Below the pieces are notes generated by a model. The model searched no databases, was not told the DNA's origin, and saw only the letters and a list, made by a program, of their open reading frames with translations. Of a stretch of DNA of 64,000 bases, positions 1,786-27,169 are shown piece by piece. The translations under genes were made by a program, and so were the position numbers. The stretch covers positions 3,911 through 67,910 of the forward strand of contig JAUSJC010000005.1 in NCBI GenBank assembly GCA_030647775.1, written 5' to 3'. Origin of the DNA: Candidatus Curtissbacteria bacterium. Lineage in GTDB: Bacteria > Patescibacteriota > Microgenomatia > Curtissbacterales > GWA2-41-24. The first letter of the stretch is position 1. Each line of letters opens with the position of its first letter.

Positions 1786-2721
1786 CTATTTGTTACCGGA
1801 ATGGAAAACCTTGTGAACATTGCGTAATTGCTGATTGGTTACGTGCGTGTAAATCTGCGTCGTAGCCACGTTTTTGTGGCCCAGAAGCTCCTGAACGCTC
1901 CTAAGATCCGCCCCGTTCATCAAAAGGTCTGTGGCAAAGGAATGCCTTAAAACGTGAGGTGAAACTTTCACCGGCAGCCGGGCTTTCCTGGTATATTTAT
2001 CGACAACCCGTTGGACAGAACGGGGAGTTAAACGCATCTTCTCGCCGTTTATGGCAGGCGACTGGTTACCAGCGTAGCGGATAAAGAGGGGACTAAAATT
2101 GTCAGATCTTTTGACCAGATATTTTTCCAGCCAAATCGCCGCCCGATCCGAAATAAAAACCACCCTCGGCCGCTGACCCTTACCGATAACGCCAAACTCC
2201 TTGCGCTCCAAATTAACCTGGTCGCAGTTCAACTTACAAAGCTCCGAGACACGCAAACCTGTTGAAAAAAGCATTTCCATTAGAGCCTTATCCCGAAGTC
2301 CTCTCTCTTTGGAAACATCAGGCTGTGCTAAAAGTCTTTCCATCTGATCTCGGTCTAAAAACTTCAAACTACGACTTTCGACTTTTGGCAAATCGATTTT
2401 ATCCGGCGCCACCACTTTTAAATCCTTTCTTATCAAATACTTGAGGAATGATCTTAGCGCGATAACGTAATAATTTTGGGTGACTTTTTTAAGGGGTAAA
2501 TTACCGTTTGGGCTATTAAAATGGGCTAAATACACGCGATATTTACGGACCAAGTCAACAGTTAAATCCTCGGGGCGGGCAATGGGGGAGTTGGCGAGAG
2601 ACCACGCACAAAAAATGACAAGATAATGCCGGTAGTCACGGATCGTTAGGGGAGAGAGGTTTCTTTCAATCTCTAAATACTCCAAAAACTCATCAACAAG
2701 TGCGGGCAGATCAAATTGCAT
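1786..2721 (-). CDS. xerC/xerD: site-specific tyrosine recombinase XerC/XerD family
   Basis: C-terminal catalytic signature HVLRHSFATDLLMNGADLRSVQELLGHKNVATTQIYTHV; N-terminal SAM-like core-binding domain. Confidence 0.85.
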   Translation of the reverse strand: MQFDLPALVDEFLEYLEIERNLSPLTIRDYRHYLVIFCAWSLANSPIARPEDLTVDLVRKYRVYLAHFNSPNGNLPLKKVTQNYYVIALRSFLKYLIRKDLKVVAPDKIDLPKVESRSLKFLDRDQMERLLAQPDVSKERGLRDKALMEMLFSTGLRVSELCKLNCDQVNLERKEFGVIGKGQRPRVVFISDRAAIWLEKYLVKRSDNFSPLFIRYAGNQSPAINGEKMRLTPRSVQRVVDKYTRKARLPVKVSPHVLRHSFATDLLMNGADLRSVQELLGHKNVATTQIYTHVTNQQLRNVHKVFHSGNK

Positions 2722-3560: not shown

Positions 3561-4277
3561 ATGGCAGACCCTAAATACAAAAGAGTTCTTCTAAAACTTT
3601 CCGGTGAAACATTCTTAGGCAAACGCGAATATGGCATCGATCCTGAATTTTGCCAATGGCTTGCCCGCGAAATTATCAAAGCTAAAGAAAGCGGCACTCA
3701 AATTGCTATCGTTGTCGGCGGCGGCAACATTTTCCGTGGCAATTCGGCCGAGGAAAACGGACTTGAAAGAACCGTCGGCGATTATATCGGCATGCTGGCA
3801 ACTATTATGAATTCACTTGCTCTTCAAGCAGCCCTGGAGAAAGAAAACCAGCCGACACGCGTCCTTTCGGCAATCGACATCAAAGACGTTTGCGAACCGT
3901 ATGTCCGCCGCCGTGCCATCCGCCATATGGAAAAGGGAAGAGTCGTCATTTTTGCCGGCGGCACCGGCAACCCTTTCTTCACCACCGATTCGGCAGCTGC
4001 CCTGCGCGCTCTGGAGACAGAATGCGAAATAATCCTAAAAGCCACTAAAGTTGATGGCGTTTACGACAAAGACCCGCAAAAAAACCCGGGCGCCAAAAAA
4101 TTTGAGAGTTTAACATTCGCCGAAGCCATTGCCAACAAAGAAATAGAAATTATGGACAACAGCGCGCTTTCACTTTGTATGGACCACAAAATCCCCATTG
4201 TGGTTTTTGATATCGCCAAAGAAAATAATATCCAAAAAGCTGTCACCGGCGAAAAAATCGGCACCCTGATCTCGTAA
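3561..4277 (+). CDS. pyrH: UMP kinase
   Basis: KRVLLKLSGE...IAIVVGGGNIFRG...VVIFAGGTGNPFFTTDSAAALRA are the canonical amino-acid kinase/PyrH motifs. Confidence 0.95.
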   Translation: MADPKYKRVLLKLSGETFLGKREYGIDPEFCQWLAREIIKAKESGTQIAIVVGGGNIFRGNSAEENGLERTVGDYIGMLATIMNSLALQAALEKENQPTRVLSAIDIKDVCEPYVRRRAIRHMEKGRVVIFAGGTGNPFFTTDSAAALRALETECEIILKATKVDGVYDKDPQKNPGAKKFESLTFAEAIANKEIEIMDNSALSLCMDHKIPIVVFDIAKENNIQKAVTGEKIGTLIS

Positions 4278-4322: not shown

Positions 4323-4742
4323 ATGAGAAAAGAAACAAAGAATGATTATGTAAGGTTTTTGCTAAATGAATACGATCTAATGGTAACCGGGCGGCCGCAG
4401 GCTTTAGCATTTAATCAAAATCGCAAAGCTCTTAATCTAAGATTAGTTGATTTTCGCCCGTTATATCTTGGGGTAAATATCTTCGCCGACATGTATGGCG
4501 ACTCTACCTTTCTCGCTCAAGCAATCCCGGTTGAAACACACATTCCCGAAGATACCGATGAAATTCCGGTTAACTCCTTGGGAATCCATGACCTTATTAG
4601 AAAACTCCGCAGTCACATTAATACTAATTATCCTGACTTTGCCAATTTACCCATCTGTGTTTACTTATCACACCGGGATTTCTTAAGACACAACCCAAGG
4701 TATGCTATTGCACCTTACCGTAGACTCCGAAAAACAGCCTAA
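4323..4742 (+). CDS. hypothetical protein
   Basis: ORF track only. Confidence 0.4.
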   Translation: MRKETKNDYVRFLLNEYDLMVTGRPQALAFNQNRKALNLRLVDFRPLYLGVNIFADMYGDSTFLAQAIPVETHIPEDTDEIPVNSLGIHDLIRKLRSHINTNYPDFANLPICVYLSHRDFLRHNPRYAIAPYRRLRKTA

Positions 4743-6524: not shown

Positions 6525-7106
6525 CTAACGCCTAACGTTTTTTGTCTTCACCTTAGTCTTTAGTCCTTCGTCGTTAGTCGCTGTTTTAATAACATGGCAA
6601 ATCGCCACAGCCAGTGCATCCGCCGCGTCGTCAATATAACCCTTCGCGGGCTTTGCCAGTTTATGTTTATGCAAATGGCGCATTACGTGCTTTTGAATCT
6701 CCTTCTTGTCTGATTTGCCGCTGCCTGTCACAGTCAGTTTGACCGAAAGCCCCTGATACTCAAATATCGGCACGCGATTGTTGTAACCGGCAATAGTTGA
6801 AAGCACTACTCCCCTTGCCTGCCCCACAGTCATTGCTGTTCTCGAGTTAATGCCAAAGAACAATTGCTCGATCGCTATACAATCCGGTTTATATCGTTTG
6901 AGAAGTACTTTTAAATCTTTGCCAATCGAAAAAAGCCTCATGGGCATCGCCTGTTCTTTGGGGGTAACAATACAGCCGTATTCGATAAGAGTTAGGCCAT
7001 TGGTCCTGAGCGAAGTCGAAGGACCGTTGTTCTTGGAACTGGGCTCTTTTTTTACCACGCCGTAACCGGTTGTCGCCGTTCCCGGATCTATACCAAAAAT
7101 TATCAT
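6525..7106 (-). CDS. ruvC: crossover junction endodeoxyribonuclease RuvC (C-terminal tail extended through a repeat element)
   Basis: MIIFGIDPGTATTGYGVV...IAIEQLFFGINSRTAM matches the RuvC catalytic N-terminus; the last ~20 codons overlap the CGTTAGTC/TGACTAA repeat cluster. Confidence 0.85.
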   Translation of the reverse strand: MIIFGIDPGTATTGYGVVKKEPSSKNNGPSTSLRTNGLTLIEYGCIVTPKEQAMPMRLFSIGKDLKVLLKRYKPDCIAIEQLFFGINSRTAMTVGQARGVVLSTIAGYNNRVPIFEYQGLSVKLTVTGSGKSDKKEIQKHVMRHLHKHKLAKPAKGYIDDAADALAVAICHVIKTATNDEGLKTKVKTKNVRR

Positions 7107-23398: not shown

Positions 23399-24904
23399 TC
23401 ATTTTTGAGAAAGCGAAAGCGCAAGATTAACTAAAGTCACCAGCGGAATACCCGTTGCTCCTTTGGACGCATAAGGCCCCTCTTGCTCTTCCCATGCGGT
23501 TGCACAAATATCCAAATGAGCCCAAGCTGTCTTTTTCCCGACAAACTCCTCCAAAAATTTACCACCCGTCTCTGTCCCGCCGCCGCGCACCGAAGAAACA
23601 TTGGCAATATCGGCAATGTAACTTTTTAACTGGTCGCGGTATTCCGCGTAGAGCGGCAGCTGCCAATACCTTTCTCCGGACTCAACACCTGTTTTTATGA
23701 CTTCATCAATAAAATTCTGCGGCCTTCCCAAAATTGCCGAGGCCCAATTCCCCAGAGCAACAATCGCCGCGCCTGTTAAAGTCGCCACGTCCACGATATA
23801 ATCCGGCTTAAATTTATTCTGCACATAAGTTAAAGCGTCGGAAAGCACCAGCCTTCCCTCCGCGTCGGTATTGATAATCTCCACAGTTTTACCCGAAAGC
23901 CCTTTTACAACATCCCCCGGCTTTGAAGCTTTTCCCGACGGCAAATTTTCCGTCAATGGTACGGCACAAACAACATTGATTTTGGGCTTAAGTTTTGCAA
24001 TTACCTCCATCGCGCCAAGACAAGCCGCCGCACCGGCCATGTCCATCTTCATCCATTCCATATTGTCACCCGGCTTGATAGAAATTCCGCCGGAATCAAA
24101 AGTGATCCCTTTACCAACCAAAGCCAAAGTTTTAGCACTGGAGCCACCCCCTAAATACCTCATTACCACAAAATAAAGGTCTTCTTCCGACCCTTTGGCG
24201 ACCGAAGCCATGATACCCATTCCCATGTCGTTGACCTGTTTTTCCGAAAATACTTCAATTTTTAATTTGTTCTCCGCGGCGATTTTCTTGGCAAACTTAA
24301 CCATGTACTCGGGAGTACAAACATTCGCCGGTAAATTAACAACCTCGCGAACCCTATCCATCGTCTCGGAAATAATGAGCCCCTTCTCTGCCCCCTCCTT
24401 GACCTTTTTCAAATCCTCTTCCGTCAAAATCTCCAGACTTTCCACTTTAACTTTCGACTTTGACTCTTCTCCTGTTTTCCTGTGCCCCGGATCAAAAATA
24501 CCGGAAGAAAATCCCACAACAACAAGCTCGGCATTTTCGCTAGCCTTCACCTCTTTTGGCAAATACAAAGAAAGGCTTTTAGCTCCCTTGGTTTGGGATT
24601 TAGAAACGGCCGCAGCAAACTGCCGAAGATAAACCGGCTCCAACTTTTCCTTTTTCCCTAAGCCAAAAAGTACAATCTTTTCAAGTGTTTTGTGTTTTTT
24701 AGGAGACACTGTAAATACTATGCCTTCGTAAAGCTTCCCGAATTTTTCCTTCTTTTTTAAAAACCTTAAAATCGCACCGTCCGTCAACCCATCAACACCC
24801 TTTGGCAAATTGCGGCCGTCACCTTCCCAAACGCCGCAAACCAAACATTCGGCGCTGATTTTGGCAATGTCAAACTTAGAAGCTGTAACTTTCACTTTCG
24901 GCAA
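23399..24904 (-). CDS. pepA: leucyl aminopeptidase (M17)
   Basis: M17 signature NTDAEGRLVLSDAL and metal-binding region. Confidence 0.9.
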   Translation of the reverse strand: MPKVKVTASKFDIAKISAECLVCGVWEGDGRNLPKGVDGLTDGAILRFLKKKEKFGKLYEGIVFTVSPKKHKTLEKIVLFGLGKKEKLEPVYLRQFAAAVSKSQTKGAKSLSLYLPKEVKASENAELVVVGFSSGIFDPGHRKTGEESKSKVKVESLEILTEEDLKKVKEGAEKGLIISETMDRVREVVNLPANVCTPEYMVKFAKKIAAENKLKIEVFSEKQVNDMGMGIMASVAKGSEEDLYFVVMRYLGGGSSAKTLALVGKGITFDSGGISIKPGDNMEWMKMDMAGAAACLGAMEVIAKLKPKINVVCAVPLTENLPSGKASKPGDVVKGLSGKTVEIINTDAEGRLVLSDALTYVQNKFKPDYIVDVATLTGAAIVALGNWASAILGRPQNFIDEVIKTGVESGERYWQLPLYAEYRDQLKSYIADIANVSSVRGGGTETGGKFLEEFVGKKTAWAHLDICATAWEEQEGPYASKGATGIPLVTLVNLALSLSQK

Positions 24905-24938
24905 TGATATAATATTGAAGCTATTTTAGCAATCTCGG

Positions 24939-25021
24939 GGGCAAGTGGCGGAATGGTATACGCGGTAGTCTCAAAAACTACTGGTCGCAAGACTGTGAGA
25001 GTTCGAATCTCTCCTTGCCCA
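24939..25021 (+). tRNA. tRNA-Leu (anticodon CAA), class II with long variable arm
   Basis: Folded by hand: acceptor GGGCAAG/CTTGCCC, anticodon stem GTAGT/ACTAC with loop CTCAAAA, variable arm with GCAA tetraloop, T-arm GAGAG-TTCGAAT-CTCTC, discriminator A; CCA not encoded. Confidence 0.75.
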
Positions 25022-25044
25022 CAAACTTGACACATGCGAGTATC

Positions 25045-25250
25045 TTTTTTTGCTTTAGCAAAAAACGTCTTAAAACTCGTGGGCGCAAGCCCGTGAGAGT
25101 TCGACTCTCTCTCTCAGCACTGACGCGTAGCTATCCTTTTTGCTTTAGCAAAAACGTGAGCGAAGCGAACTAAAAGCTATGAGCGCAAGCTCATGTGGGT
25201 TCGACTCCCACCTTGCCCACAATCAAAAGGGTTCGTTTTTCTCGTAGCGA
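25045..25250 (+). repeat. tandem tRNA 3'-half-like remnants (variable arm + T-arm + acceptor 3' strand), each preceded by an A/T-rich palindrome TTTTTGCTTTAGCAAAAA
   Basis: CGTGGGCGCAAGCCCGTGAGAGTTCGACTCTCTC... and GAGCGCAAGCTCATGTGGGTTCGACTCCCACCTTGCCCACA repeat the 3' architecture of the upstream tRNA-Leu (the second ends in the identical acceptor strand CTTGCCCACA); no matching 5' halves are present. Confidence 0.6.
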
Positions 25251-25330
25251 AAAACGTCTTATCCCTCTCTCGGCACAACTATCATCAAATTGACTTCCCT
25301 GTCTCCAAAATGCTATTTTAAAAACCAAAA

Positions 25331-25744
25331 ATGCGCGGCGAGCGACTCACGTTAGAAACGACACCCCTAGAGGCTATTTCTCAAATGGCCGAAAATAATG
25401 TTGGTGCCCAAATAGCATGTCTAAAACTTTTGGCGAATGGCGATGCCATTGACCCAGGCTTGTCTCCAGATGCAGGGTTCATTGCTCTTCTATATCTGGA
25501 TGAGCTGAACGTTTGGGGAGAACGCCTCAATAAATTCTGGCAGGATGTTTGTAATCAGGATGAAGGAGTGATGTTCGCTATTCTACGGGCTTACCAGCTG
25601 GGCGAACTTGTGGGAGTAAACCAAAATACCATCGATCATGCAATTGCCAACCACGGCGACGGTATTAATACAGATGCCGTTATTGCCGCGGTCAAAGAAT
25701 ATCTGCCCAATTTTAATCCTGCGGCAAGAGCGCATTCTACCTAA
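25331..25744 (+). CDS. hypothetical protein
   Basis: ORF track only; sits immediately downstream of the tRNA-remnant array. Confidence 0.4.
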   Translation: MRGERLTLETTPLEAISQMAENNVGAQIACLKLLANGDAIDPGLSPDAGFIALLYLDELNVWGERLNKFWQDVCNQDEGVMFAILRAYQLGELVGVNQNTIDHAIANHGDGINTDAVIAAVKEYLPNFNPAARAHST

Positions 25745-25816: not shown

Positions 25817-27169
25817 TTAAGCAGTCTCCGGAAGAACTTCTTGCTCAACCTTTACCTTCGCCCTTTGTTTTTCCACCCCGAAGAATTTAACCCTATCTGC
25901 CCGAAATGCCAAATCAATTTCCCCGGTCGGGCCGTTTCTGTGTTTTTGGATATCTAATTTTACTTGTTCTATTTTTTCCGCATCCGGCCGCCAGAGAAAC
26001 ATCACCACATCGGCATCCTGCTCAATTGCGCCGGATTCGCGCAGGTCGGCAAGCTGTGGCTTTCTGCTGCCTCTTTGTTCAACCGCTCTTGACATTTGCG
26101 AACATGCCAAAACCGGAATCTTAAGTTCCCTTGCCAGATTCTTTAAGCTTTGGGAAATTTCCGAAACTTCCTGTACCCTGTTTTCCAAATTCCTGCCGTG
26201 GATTAACTGCAAATAATCGACAATCAAAAGCGAAAGCCCGTGCTCTACCTGCAGACGCCTTGCCTTGGTTCTCATTTCCAGAATGTTGGCCGCCGGCGTG
26301 TCGTCAATAAAAAGCGGCGCGTCGGCTAAAATTCCCATCGCCTCCTGAAGCCTGTCAAAATCGTCATCGTCCAGTTTTCCGGTTTTAAGCCTCCAGGCAT
26401 CGACTTCCGACTGCGCTACCAGCAGTCTGTCAACCAGTTCCTCTTTGCTCATTTCCAGCGAGAATATACCGACCGGCAAACCTTCTTTGACTGCTACATG
26501 GGCCGCGATGTTGAGAGCCAGCGACGTTTTACCCTGGCCCGGACGCGATGCCAAAATTAATAAATTCGAATCCTGCATTCCGGCCAATTTCCCGTCTAAA
26601 TCCCAAAAACCGGTTGGCACGCCGCGCAGCCCTCCGGCCTTTTTATGAAGTTCGTCTAGCCTGTCAAAACTTTCAGCCAAGGCACTCTTTAAAGGTATAA
26701 AATTTTGGCGCATCTGTTCCTGCGAAAGCGCAAAGACAGCCTGCTCCGTTTCGTCCAGAATATTCCTAACATCTCCCGTTTCGTCAAAAGCCGCCTCGGA
26801 AACCTTAGCCGCAGTTGTGATGAGCTGCCTTTTTATAAAGTGGTGCCGCACAATCTGCGCGTACTGGACGATATTGGCAGCGGTCGGGACGCCGGAAGCC
26901 AGCTGGGCCAAATACGCCGCGCCACCGATATCTTCAAATCTACCTTTGCTCTTCAGTTCCGCCGTCAAGGTAATCAGGTCAATTGGCTCACGCCTTTCAA
27001 ACAAATTGAAAATCGCGCTGTAGATATCGGCATGTGCCTGCTTATAAAAATGTTCGGGCTTTAAAGTCTGGGCAACGGCGATAATAGCATCGCGGTCAAG
27101 TAAGATTGCTCCGATTATGGATTTTTCGGCTTCTAAATCTTGGGGCGGCACTCGGCCGATGTTTTTCAT
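25817..27169 (-). CDS. dnaB: replicative DNA helicase
   Basis: Walker A GQGKTS within PGQGKTSLALNIA and the DnaB C-terminal RecA-like domain; N-terminal DnaB domain. Confidence 0.95.
   Translation of the reverse strand: MKNIGRVPPQDLEAEKSIIGAILLDRDAIIAVAQTLKPEHFYKQAHADIYSAIFNLFERREPIDLITLTAELKSKGRFEDIGGAAYLAQLASGVPTAANIVQYAQIVRHHFIKRQLITTAAKVSEAAFDETGDVRNILDETEQAVFALSQEQMRQNFIPLKSALAESFDRLDELHKKAGGLRGVPTGFWDLDGKLAGMQDSNLLILASRPGQGKTSLALNIAAHVAVKEGLPVGIFSLEMSKEELVDRLLVAQSEVDAWRLKTGKLDDDDFDRLQEAMGILADAPLFIDDTPAANILEMRTKARRLQVEHGLSLLIVDYLQLIHGRNLENRVQEVSEISQSLKNLARELKIPVLACSQMSRAVEQRGSRKPQLADLRESGAIEQDADVVMFLWRPDAEKIEQVKLDIQKHRNGPTGEIDLAFRADRVKFFGVEKQRAKVKVEQEVLPETA

What the first reader, a model, noticed from the sequence alone, without database searches (positions are those of the whole stretch)
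24939..25250. tRNA-Leu(CAA) followed by tandem tRNA 3'-half remnants: integration scars or unusual tRNA-like RNAs
A complete class II tRNA-Leu is followed by two or three units, each made of an A/T palindrome (TTTTTGCTTTAGCAAAAA) followed by a tRNA 3' half (variable arm with GCAA tetraloop, T-arm, acceptor 3' strand). One unit ends in exactly the same acceptor strand CTTGCCCACA as the real tRNA, and no matching 5' halves exist. Serial regeneration of a tRNA 3' end is the footprint of repeated site-specific integration and excision at a tRNA attB. A hypothetical gene with no homolog (25331-25744) sits right after the array.
Basis: partly seen in the sequence, partly recalled or inferred. Interest (0 to 1): 0.6.

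Follow-up and report, generated by a model that had tools for sequence, protein, structure and literature searches.

The report
Dead tRNA-Leu gene copies stacked behind live one
Behind the working tRNA-Leu(CAA) gene of a Candidatus Curtissbacteria genome lie three broken older versions of that gene, each cut by a small hairpin insert, which shows that this gene and its neighbour have been swapped repeatedly; the fragments look like scars, not working RNAs.

Summary
One tRNA-Leu(CAA) gene (24939-25022) is followed by three tRNA-Leu-derived units (U1 25029-25120, U2 25122-25221, U3 25222-25277). U1 and U2 are not "palindrome + 3' half". Each is a tRNA-Leu gene from about nt 22 (D stem) to the 3' end. 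The palindrome sits inside it, in a 27- or 37-nt insert between nt 31 and 32, at the 5' edge of the anticodon loop.

With the insert removed, U2 is 57/63 identical to the tRNA of a syntenic relative, and U1 is 54/61 identical to another relative's tRNA. So the units are different natural alleles, not local duplicates.

About 15 related Curtissbacteria loci keep the order pepA-tRNA-Leu(CAA)-X-dnaB. X differs in nearly every genome and the tRNA alleles are mosaic. Three relatives carry other dead pieces. One (L003) has the same "tRNA nt ..31 | ATC-hairpin" junction upstream of its intact gene.

No integrase or element DNA lies at the locus, and no phage match was found.

My reading: these are non-functional scars of repeated allele and cargo replacement at a recombination hot spot with recurrent breakpoints. 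The agent is unknown. Classical integrase att scars are only partly supported. Interest is moderate.

The parts
24905..24913 (+). Extended -10 box TGATATAAT of the tRNA-Leu promoter. It abuts the divergent pepA start.
   Evidence: The sequence '(a/c)atgatataat' or 'atcatataat' is conserved upstream of tRNA-Leu(CAA) in the relatives. Promoter function is inferred.
24939..25022 (+). Functional tRNA-Leu(CAA). Acceptor GGGCAAG/CTTGCCC, no encoded CCA.
   Evidence: ARAGORN. Rfam tRNA 61 bits. The first 30 nt are identical in relative L184. T arm plus acceptor are identical in L189.
25029..25041 (+). U1 5' piece: D-stem 3' strand plus anticodon-stem 5' strand (GACACATGCGAGT).
   Evidence: With the insert removed, U1 aligns to L004 tRNA positions 22-86 at 54/61 identities. 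RNAfold pairs GCGAGU with ACUCGU across the insert.
25042..25068 (+). U1 insert, 27 nt: ATC - hairpin T7GC-TTTA-GCA6 - CGT, placed between tRNA nt 31 and 32.
   Evidence: Homologous to the junction upstream of the intact tRNA in L003: local score 40 against a null maximum of 26 in 500 shuffles.
25069..25120 (+). U1 3' part. Damaged anticodon loop CTTAAA, stem ACTCG, variable arm GGGC-GCAA-GCCC, T arm GAGAG-TTCGACT-CTCTC, acceptor 3' strand TCTCAGC, then AC.
   Evidence: The acceptor strand cannot pair with the resident 5' strand GGGCAAG (read directly from the sequence).
25122..25132 (+). U2 5' piece GACGCGTAGCT (D-stem 3' strand plus anticodon-stem 5' strand).
   Evidence: 11/11 identical to the tRNA of the syntenic relative L147.
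25133..25169 (+). U2 insert, 37 nt: ATCC - hairpin TTTTTGC-TTTA-GCAAAAA - CGTGAGCGAAGCGAA.
   Evidence: It aligns with the L003 module, including GAGCGAAGC..GAA: score 30 against a null maximum of 25 in 500 shuffles.
25170..25221 (+). U2 3' part. Loop remnant, stem AGCTA, variable arm GAGC-GCAA-GCTC, T arm GTGGG-TTCGACT-CCCAC, acceptor CTTGCCC, then ACA.
   Evidence: With the insert removed, U2 is 57/63 identical to L147 tRNA positions 22-86. T arm plus acceptor differ by 1 nt from the functional tRNA of L191. Resident 5' 20 nt joined to insert-free U2 is called tRNA-Leu by ARAGORN.
25222..25277 (+). U3: ATC-AAAAGGGTTCG - degenerate hairpin (25236-25254) - CGT - CTTA - internal deletion - TCCCTC TCTCGGC ACA (tRNA 3' end).
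   Evidence: families D2, D6. U1 and U3 modules share TTTT.CT..TAGC.AAAAACGTCTTA. Present in an independent Logan assembly, L001.
25290..25319 (+). Promoter-like site (TTGACT-18-TATTTT) for ORF137, downstream of the array.
   Evidence: This is a consensus match only.
25331..25744 (+). ORF137, an orphan cargo gene in the variable slot between tRNA-Leu and dnaB.
   Evidence: No Pfam, PHROG or NCBIfam match. One homolog at 48% identity, found elsewhere. The AlphaFold2 model was unusable, pLDDT 45.
23399..24904 (-). pepA (M17 leucyl aminopeptidase), the conserved left anchor of the locus.
   Evidence: Pfam. Adjacency to tRNA-Leu(CAA) is kept in all relatives examined.
25817..27169 (-). dnaB, the conserved right anchor of the locus.
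   Evidence: Pfam. Same position in L147, L003, L189, L191 and L193.

Best explanation
The array is a stack of inactivated predecessors of the resident tRNA-Leu(CAA) gene. It is not a set of working RNAs.

In Curtissbacteria the interval pepA-tRNA-Leu(CAA)-X-dnaB is a recombination hot spot. DNA from other Curtissbacteria lineages is repeatedly recombined in. It carries its own tRNA-Leu(CAA) allele and usually a one-gene cargo. The joints fall at two recurrent places in the tRNA gene: the D loop/D stem (nt ~15-22) and the 5' edge of the anticodon loop (nt 30-32). The incoming allele ends up behind the conserved promoter and takes over. The previous copy is left truncated and split by a short junction module, ATC - T-run/A-run hairpin - CGT, with or without a GAGCGAAGC hairpin.

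In this genome that happened at least twice or three times. Dead copies U1, U2 and U3 were left downstream of the live gene and are probably co-transcribed as trailer.

Shown:
- The units are tRNA-Leu(CAA) genes from nt ~22 to the end, of different natural alleles.
- The hairpin module lies inside them at nt 31/32.
- The same junction occurs in another genome next to an intact tRNA.
- The cargo slot and the tRNA alleles turn over among close relatives.
- There is no integrase at the locus.

Inferred:
- That the module marks the end of the incoming DNA.
- The order of events.
- The enzyme responsible. Candidates are uptake plus homology-anchored illegitimate recombination, a homing endonuclease, or an unlinked recombinase.
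For: 1. Only one tRNA is called. The units fail ARAGORN and Rfam, also with intron search.
2. With inserts removed, U2 is 57/63 identical to L147 tRNA nt 22-86 and U1 is 54/61 identical to L004 tRNA nt 22-86. Each unit is closer to a foreign allele than to its neighbours.
3. Within each unit the anticodon-stem strands on either side of the insert are 5/5 complementary (CGAGT/ACTCG, TAGCT/AGCTA), and the stems differ between units. So each unit is one interrupted gene.
4. L003 carries dead tRNA nt 1-31 | ATC-hairpin-GAGCGAAGC hairpin - leader - intact tRNA. Its junction is significantly similar to U1 and U2 (0 of 500 shuffles reach the observed score).
5. L191 carries a dead GCCGCGG-type copy upstream of a live GGGCAAG-type gene. 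The dead copy has a T5-stem-A5 hairpin insert in its D loop and is cut at nt 30. L193 has a 20-nt 3' direct repeat ~130 nt downstream of its tRNA.
6. The cargo differs in each genome: ORF137, GntR, cupin, ArsR plus oxidoreductase, a LAGLIDADG endonuclease, and various orphans.
7. Acceptor stems among relatives with 79-85% identical PepA are GGGCAAG, GCCGAAG, GCCGAGG and GGCCGGG. Alleles are mosaics: the T arm plus acceptor of the window tRNA equals that of L189, and that of U2 is near that of L191.
8. No terminator-like site lies on the + strand between the tRNA and ORF137, and ORF137 has its own promoter-like site.
Against: - No enzyme is identified, and no intact donor element with both ends has been seen.
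- The array form (live gene first, dead copies downstream and lacking nt 1-21) was found only in this genome. L003 and L191 have the dead piece upstream, so one mechanism may not cover all cases.
- The two exact hairpin copies (18/18) contrast with diverged tRNA parts. That is not explained by independent events, and could mean gene conversion or a common source.
- The position of U1 (incompatible acceptor) between two compatible copies needs either import of an already dead unit or an extra event.
- The stems of U1 and U2 are still perfect. That fits a recent origin but does not exclude constraint.
- All the DNA comes from metagenome assemblies.
Confidence: 0.55

Rival explanations
1. Classical att scars. 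Integrase-bearing islands or prophages integrated several times into the tRNA-Leu(CAA) attB. Each brought a replacement 3' part and displaced the old one. The element bodies and integrases were later deleted, leaving only attR-like remnants.
For: - Direct, same-strand partial copies that include the 3' end.
- Different alleles.
- A hot spot with variable cargo.
- L193 shows a typical 20-nt T-loop-to-end direct repeat.
- tRNA gene fragments from integration are well documented (PMC9897764).
Against: - No integrase lies within ±7 kb. The only tyrosine recombinase in 64 kb is Xer-like, at 1786-2721.
- Only 1-7 nt separate the units, so three element bodies would each have had to be removed almost to the base.
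- The remnants start at nt ~22, not at a known sublocation.
- The hairpin lies inside the remnant.
- The U1 and U3 acceptor strands cannot pair with the resident 5' strand.
- There is no long identity block between the live gene and U1 (85% over 40 nt).
- No viral or phage match to the module.
Confidence: 0.2
2. Homing-endonuclease-driven turnover. A free-standing LAGLIDADG endonuclease linked to the tRNA cuts naive tRNA-Leu(CAA) alleles in the anticodon-stem/loop DNA. Repair from the donor copies the resistant allele plus cargo. Failed or illegitimate repair leaves truncated, insert-bearing copies.
For: - A LAGLIDADG ORF starts at the very 3' end of tRNA-Leu(CAA) in L007 and L185, L187, L188.
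- Recurrent breakpoints at nt 30-32 in three genomes.
- Fast compensatory change of stems among close relatives would fit escape from cleavage.
Against: - No endonuclease gene is present in the window locus or in L003, L191 or L193.
- The target of the L007 enzyme is unknown.
- The D-loop breakpoint and the identical hairpins are not predicted by this model.
Confidence: 0.12
3. Local tandem duplication of the tRNA gene, or of its 3' two-thirds, followed by neutral decay.
For: Head-to-tail units at a 98-100 nt period. Short AACT/ACT microhomology between the D loop and the 3' trailer.
Against: - Each unit is closer to another genome's allele than to its neighbours.
- Differences between units are compensatory in three stems, while the hairpins are identical.
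- The acceptor strands are unrelated (TCTCAGC against CTTGCCC).
Confidence: 0.05
4. The units are functional: intron-containing or split tRNA halves, or tRNA-like small RNAs or processing signals.
For: - The variable-arm, T-arm and anticodon stems of U1 and U2 are all intact.
- The U2 acceptor strand matches the live gene's 5' strand.
- U2 folds better than shuffles, z -3.2.
- Weak sub-threshold hits to tRNA-Sec and the Y RNA tRNA-like domain.
Against: - No 5' acceptor strand or D-arm 5' part.
- The anticodon loops are damaged (6 and 5 nt).
- ARAGORN with intron search finds nothing at default threshold, and only overlapping, implausible calls at 80% threshold.
- Rfam hits are far below threshold.
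- The array is absent from all ~15 relatives.
- From established knowledge, not tested here: no bacterial tRNA-splicing endonuclease pathway is known.
Confidence: 0.05
5. Assembly artefact that chains strain variants of one tRNA gene.
For: All data come from metagenome assemblies. Two Logan contigs break inside the tRNA or the array.
Against: - An independent Logan assembly reproduces 25182-25330 exactly, covering the U2 3' part, U3 and the flank.
- The units share no repeats long enough to mis-join in a de Bruijn graph, and they are joined by unique sequence.
- Related dead copies exist in other genomes from other assemblies.
Confidence: 0.03

Closest known systems
Partial tRNA genes left by integration of islands or prophages into tRNA genes (attL/attR direct repeats; van der Gulik et al. 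2023, PMC9897764)
   Same: Same-strand partial copies of the target tRNA that include its 3' end, next to an intact gene, at a site where cargo varies between strains. Software may or may not miscall them.
   Different: Here there is no integrase and no element DNA between copies. The copies start in the D-loop/D-stem region. Each carries an internal hairpin insert at nt 31/32. Two of the three cannot pair with the resident 5' half. The copies are stacked within 340 nt.
tRNA-dependent lysogeny (Guerrero-Bustamante & Hatfull 2024, PMC10865867)
   Same: The incoming DNA disrupts the host tRNA gene without rebuilding it and supplies its own tRNA of the same isotype. This resembles L003 and L191, where a dead piece sits directly beside an intact tRNA-Leu(CAA).
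   Different: That system is a phage with a tyrosine integrase and a ~10-bp common core. Here there are no phage genes, no integrase and no defined core. Resemblance of outcome only.
Very small hairpin-forming insertion repeats and MITEs, such as cyanobacterial short dispersed repeats and Rickettsia palindromic elements (from my own knowledge, not checked in papers here)
   Same: A 20-40 nt palindromic insert found inside structured genes, without obvious target duplication.
   Different: Those are dispersed in many copies per genome. This module was found only at tRNA-Leu(CAA) loci: 3 copies in 64 kb, all in the array, and none elsewhere in ~150 kb of relatives.
Intronless homing by free-standing homing endonucleases, such as the T4 seg/mob genes (from my own knowledge)
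   Same: An endonuclease gene beside a conserved gene, mosaic alleles of that gene among relatives, and co-conversion of flanking DNA.
   Different: The endonuclease is present only in the L007 group. No cleavage data. The window locus has none.
Split, permuted or intron-containing archaeal tRNA genes (from my own knowledge)
   Same: tRNA pieces interrupted at or near the anticodon loop, with a flanking hairpin-forming sequence.
   Different: No matching 5' pieces, no bulge-helix-bulge motif evident in the fold, damaged loops, bacterial host, and no conservation.

Membership tests
Integrase att-site scar at a tRNA gene | Partial tRNA copy on the same strand as the intact gene, extending to the 3' end. 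| tested here: met
   U1, U2 and U3 all end in acceptor 3' strand + A + C(A).
Integrase att-site scar at a tRNA gene | Near-identical direct repeat (the attL/attR core) shared by the intact gene and the fragment. | tested here: inconclusive
   U2 shares CTTGCCCACA (10 nt) with the live gene, but its T and variable arms differ. U1 is 85% identical over 40 nt with a different acceptor strand.
Integrase att-site scar at a tRNA gene | Integrase gene and element DNA between the intact gene and the fragment. | tested here: not met
   1-7 nt separate the units. The neighbours are pepA, ORF137 and dnaB. The only tyrosine recombinase is Xer-like and 23 kb away.
Integrase att-site scar at a tRNA gene | Fragment begins at a known crossover sublocation: anticodon loop, T loop or 3' end (Williams 2002, from my own knowledge). 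| tested here: not met
   U1 and U2 align from tRNA nt 22. U3 is too deleted to judge. L193 in a relative does meet it.
Functional tRNA, including intron-containing forms | Complete cloverleaf detected by tRNA software or a covariance model. | tested here: not met
   ARAGORN at default settings, with and without introns, and Rfam at gathering threshold find only 24939-25022. The best sub-threshold hit is tRNA-Sec at 18 bits against a cutoff of 47.
Functional tRNA, including intron-containing forms | 7-nt anticodon loop and a 5' acceptor strand complementary to the 3' strand. | tested here: not met
   The loops are reduced to CTTAAA and CTAAA. Nt 1-21 are absent from both units.
tRNA-dependent-lysogeny-like disruption | Disrupted resident tRNA with an incoming same-isotype tRNA beside it. 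| tested here: met
   Window: live gene plus disrupted U1 and U2. L003 and L191: a dead 5' piece directly upstream of an intact gene. Which copy was incoming is inferred.
tRNA-dependent-lysogeny-like disruption | Temperate phage genome with a tyrosine integrase and a short common core. | tested here: not met
   No PHROG hits for the cargo genes. No phage DNA match. No integrase.
Dispersed palindromic insertion element (MITE/REP/SDR-like) | Many dispersed copies in the genome. | tested here: not met
   The 18-mer with up to 3 mismatches occurs only in the array, plus one chance-level hit. The module is absent elsewhere in the relatives' loci. Only 64 kb of this genome was available.
Dispersed palindromic insertion element (MITE/REP/SDR-like) | Hairpin or terminal inverted repeats, with or without target-site duplication. 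| tested here: inconclusive
   The hairpin is present. No duplication flanks it in the window. In L003 a possible 9-nt repeat CTTT(T)ATAAG flanks a ~97-nt block.
CRISPR array | Regular repeats with unrelated spacers, plus cas genes. | tested here: not met
   The 'spacers' are contiguous halves of one tRNA across each repeat. No cas genes among the neighbours.

The most novel reading that the evidence does not exclude
Curtissbacteria, and perhaps other CPR bacteria, harbour a so far undescribed tRNA-gene-targeting replacement system. A small hairpin-led DNA module would insert at defined loop positions of the tRNA-Leu(CAA) gene (nt ~15-22 and 31/32), kill the resident copy, and install a new tRNA allele plus a one-gene cargo. 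It would be driven by an unlinked or transient enzyme, such as a homing endonuclease or a hairpin-recognising recombinase. That would make the tRNA gene itself a rapidly exchanged, mosaic "cassette".
Probability: 0.2. Interest if true: 0.65.

Novelty: new variant of a known kind. Interest (0 to 1): 0.42.

Why it matters
- Partial tRNA genes are normally read as simple att-site duplications. This locus shows a different anatomy in an uncultured CPR lineage. There are recurrent breakpoints in the D and anticodon loops, and a shared hairpin junction module in two distant genomes. Whole tRNA alleles, acceptor stem included, are exchanged among close relatives together with a one-gene cargo slot.
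- If a dedicated mechanism lies behind this, it would be a new way in which small-genome bacteria acquire genes and renew an essential RNA gene.
- It would also provide a natural marker for tracking horizontal exchange in Patescibacteria.
- If not, it is a well-documented example of tRNA pseudogene debris that annotation pipelines should not call as tRNAs or sRNAs.

Tried and rejected
1. Viral origin of the unusual GGGCAAG acceptor. Many IMG/VR tRNA-Leu genes share it. But L184, L189 and L191 show it is a native Curtissbacteria allele. Rejected.
2. Hairpin plus Leu 3' half as a widespread motif. There were 0 hits in viral and JGI metagenome contigs. The 18-mer plus CGT hit 28 metagenome stretches, all unrelated repeats or coding DNA with no tRNA-Leu context. 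None of the 12 loci checked falls in an Rfam family at the hairpin position.
3. Unit-specific variable/T-arm patterns in viral contigs found only complete phage tRNA-Leu genes. The junction pattern gave only chance hits. blastn against the phage collection gave no match.
4. I first thought the flank after U3 was homologous to the flank after the L147 tRNA, which would have made U3 the oldest copy in its original context. A shuffle test showed no significance (score 14, null mean 14.2). That claim is withdrawn, and the order of events is left open.
5. Retro-copy of mature tRNA. Rejected because the units end in gene-type ACA(A), not CCA.
6. CRISPR-like array. Rejected (see membership test).
7. 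ORF137 function. No Pfam, PHROG or NCBIfam match, and the AlphaFold2 model had pLDDT 45, so no fold search was run.
8. ARAGORN at an 80% threshold with long introns reports two overlapping 'tRNAs' that span several units. I treat these as artefacts.

Full report
**What is there**

The window is a chromosomal stretch of a Candidatus Curtissbacteria (Patescibacteria/CPR) metagenome-assembled genome. The ORF137 and PepA proteins are recorded under that name on a 95-kb NCBI contig. ARAGORN and Rfam find a single tRNA in 64 kb, tRNA-Leu(CAA) at 24939-25022. It sits 34 nt from the divergent pepA start, behind a conserved TGATATAAT box. On the other side come ORF137 (25331-25744) and a convergent dnaB.

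The repeat finder shows three in-register copies of the variable arm and T arm at 98- and 100-nt spacing, and three copies of a palindrome-containing segment. The variable-arm/T-arm motif occurs three times in the window, all here, against 0.01 expected. The 18-nt palindrome occurs twice exactly, only here.

**Corrected anatomy**

The units are not "palindrome followed by a 3' half". In U1 the ten bases ACATGCGAGT (25032-25041) lie upstream of the palindrome. In U2 the eleven bases GACGCGTAGCT (25122-25132) do. These are the D-stem 3' strand and the anticodon-stem 5' strand of a tRNA-Leu. They are exactly complementary to the anticodon-stem 3' strands (ACTCG, AGCTA) that lie downstream of the palindrome. 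RNAfold pairs them across it.

I removed the inserts of 27 nt (ATC-hairpin-CGT) and 37 nt (ATCC-hairpin-CGTGAGCGAAGCGAA). U2 then aligns to nt 22-86 of the tRNA-Leu(CAA) of the syntenic relative L147 with 57/63 identities. U1 aligns to nt 22-86 of the L004 tRNA with 54/61. The resident 5' 20 nt joined to insert-free U2 is called a tRNA-Leu by ARAGORN.

Each of U1 and U2 is therefore one tRNA-Leu(CAA) gene that lacks nt 1-21 and is interrupted between nt 31 and 32, with a shortened anticodon loop. U3 (25222-25277) is an ATC-hairpin-CGT-CTTA module fused by an internal deletion to the last 16 nt of a tRNA. Only 1-7 nt separate successive units.

**The units are different natural alleles**

The stems differ between units by compensatory changes:
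- variable arm GGTC/GACT, GGGC/GCCC, GAGC/GCTC;
- T stem GAGAG/CTCTC against GTGGG/CCCAC;
- anticodon stem GTAGT, CGAGT, TAGCT.

Each version is found as a live tRNA in some relative:
- The window tRNA's first 30 nt are identical in L184. Its T arm plus acceptor are identical in L189.
- U2's T arm plus acceptor differ by one base from the live gene of L191.
- U1's body is L004-like.

This excludes simple in-place duplication and drift. The acceptor strands of U1 (TCTCAGC) and U3 (TCTCGGC) cannot pair with the resident 5' strand GGGCAAG, whereas U2's can.

**The locus in relatives**

I fetched about 15 distinct related loci through PepA homologs. All keep pepA next to tRNA-Leu(CAA), and many keep dnaB on the far side.

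The gene in between differs almost every time:
- ORF137 (window);
- a GntR regulator (L147);
- a cupin (L145);
- ArsR plus an oxidoreductase (L002);
- a LAGLIDADG endonuclease whose ORF starts at the tRNA 3' end (L007, L185, L187, L188);
- various orphans.

Acceptor stems among genomes with 79-85% identical PepA are GGGCAAG, GCCGAAG, GCCGAGG and GGCCGGG.

None of these relatives has the downstream array, but three carry other debris:
- L003 has, between promoter and intact gene, nt 1-31 of an L004-like tRNA. This is followed by ATC, a T-run/A-run hairpin, a GAGCGAAGC hairpin and a leader. Its junction aligns with U1 (score 40, null maximum 26) and U2 (score 30, null maximum 25). In both cases 0 of 500 shuffles reached the observed score.
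- L191/L192 have a dead GCCGCGG-type copy upstream of the live gene. The dead copy has a similar hairpin inserted in its D loop and is cut at nt 30.
- L193 has a textbook 20-nt T-loop-to-end direct repeat ~130 nt after its tRNA.

The breakpoints therefore recur at the D loop/D stem and at the 5' edge of the anticodon loop.

**What it is not**

- There is no integrase, transposase or phage gene at the locus. The only tyrosine recombinase in the window (1786-2721) is Xer-like and 23 kb away.
- The module and the unit-specific patterns have no counterpart in IMG/VR, the GenBank phage collection or the JGI metagenome contigs.
- The bare 18-mer occurs elsewhere only at the tips of unrelated repeats.
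- The module is not dispersed in the window or in the relatives' DNA.
- The units end in gene-type ACA(A), not CCA, so they are not retro-copies of mature tRNA.
- They are not CRISPR spacers, because each tRNA is contiguous across the repeat.
- An independent Logan assembly reproduces the U2 3' part, U3 and the flank exactly. That argues against an assembler artefact.

**Interpretation**

The best-supported reading is that U1-U3 are non-functional predecessors of the resident gene. They were left by repeated replacement of the tRNA allele, and of the adjacent cargo, at a recombination hot spot.

The hairpin module most likely marks the end of the incoming DNA or the repair joint. In L003 it lies exactly between the dead 5' piece and the incoming leader plus tRNA.

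The classical integrase model explains the hot spot and the allelic diversity. It does not explain the missing element DNA, the D-region start, the internal hairpin or the incompatible acceptor strands.

A homing-endonuclease model is attractive because of the LAGLIDADG gene in the L007 group and the recurrent anticodon-loop breakpoint. It remains circumstantial.

I could not reconstruct the order of events. A supposed homology between the flank after U3 and the L147 flank failed a shuffle test.

Functional-RNA readings have no positive support, but only expression data can finally exclude them.

**Verdict**

This is a real feature and a new variant of a known kind, namely tRNA gene fragments at an insertion hot spot. 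Its architecture is unusual and partly shared with other genomes. Interest is moderate. It would rise if a dedicated tRNA-targeting replacement mechanism were demonstrated.

Noticed in passing
L007:3073-3750 (-); also L185, L187, L188:1573-2250 (-): A free-standing LAGLIDADG homing-endonuclease ORF (225 aa; Pfam LAGLIDADG_3, E 1.3e-6). Its ATG overlaps the last bases of tRNA-Leu(CAA). It is present in several Curtissbacteria assemblies.
   Followed up: partly
L003:3830-3931 (-): A ~97-nt block lies between promoter and intact tRNA. It holds nt 1-31 of a dead tRNA-Leu and two hairpins, and seems flanked by a 9-nt direct repeat CTTT(T)ATAAG. This might be a target-site duplication of a small tRNA-derived insertion element.
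   Followed up: partly
L191:3302-3375 (-) and L192:405-478 (-): A dead GCCGCGG-type tRNA-Leu 5' part, with a 31-nt hairpin insert (TTTTTCGAC-TTCG-GTCGAAAAA) in its D loop. It is cut at nt 30 and followed by a 13-nt copy of the leader and then a live GGGCAAG-type tRNA.
   Followed up: partly
L193:3110-3272 (-): After the intact tRNA come two perfect hairpins, ~130 nt in all, then a 20-nt repeat of the tRNA 3' end (ATTCTCTCCCGCGGCACAAA). This is a miniature att-type duplication with no genes inside.
   Followed up: no
L145:~4400-4490 and L148:~3990-4080: A remnant of roughly 90-110 nt of the dnaB 3' end (31/31 identical to window ~25866-25896) sits next to a TPR/TMEM260-like gene, where dnaB itself is missing. 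The right anchor of the locus has been rearranged in these relatives. Seen by eye only.
   Followed up: no
L159-L162, L166, L171, L174, L176, L178, L181 (ENA ERZ1034361/ERZ1034363 contigs): The same 18-nt palindrome TTTTTGCTTTAGCAAAAA forms the tip of a longer palindromic repeat (TTGGGTTAGC.T-hairpin-A.CGTAACCCAA...). That repeat is present in many copies in an unrelated ~40% GC genome. A second family occurs in ACQI01 contigs. There is no Rfam match at the hairpin position in the loci checked.
   Followed up: partly
L184:1-30 and L001:1: Two independent Logan contigs end inside this locus, one at tRNA nt 30 and one in the U2 variable arm. This may reflect population heterogeneity or coverage problems exactly at the array.
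   Followed up: no
window:1786-2721 (-): A single Xer-like tyrosine recombinase. Best NCBIfam hits are XerC and XerD, both below the equivalog cutoffs. RuvC lies a few kb away at 6525-7106.
   Followed up: partly
window:7107-11191 (-): Three adjacent ORFs carry a citrate-synthase C-terminal domain, CoA-ligase domains, and ATP-grasp_2 plus Citrate_bind domains. This resembles a split ATP-citrate-lyase or citryl-CoA system, which seems unexpected in a small CPR genome.
   Followed up: no
window:31210-32997 (+): A 595-aa ORF after a 145-aa sigma-like ORF. By eye it has sigma-70-like regions and a duplicated C-terminal segment (two similar '...LRDIG(L/I)SY.T(Y/F)...ILV/ILI...QQE(M/I)I..RL' repeats).
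   Followed up: no
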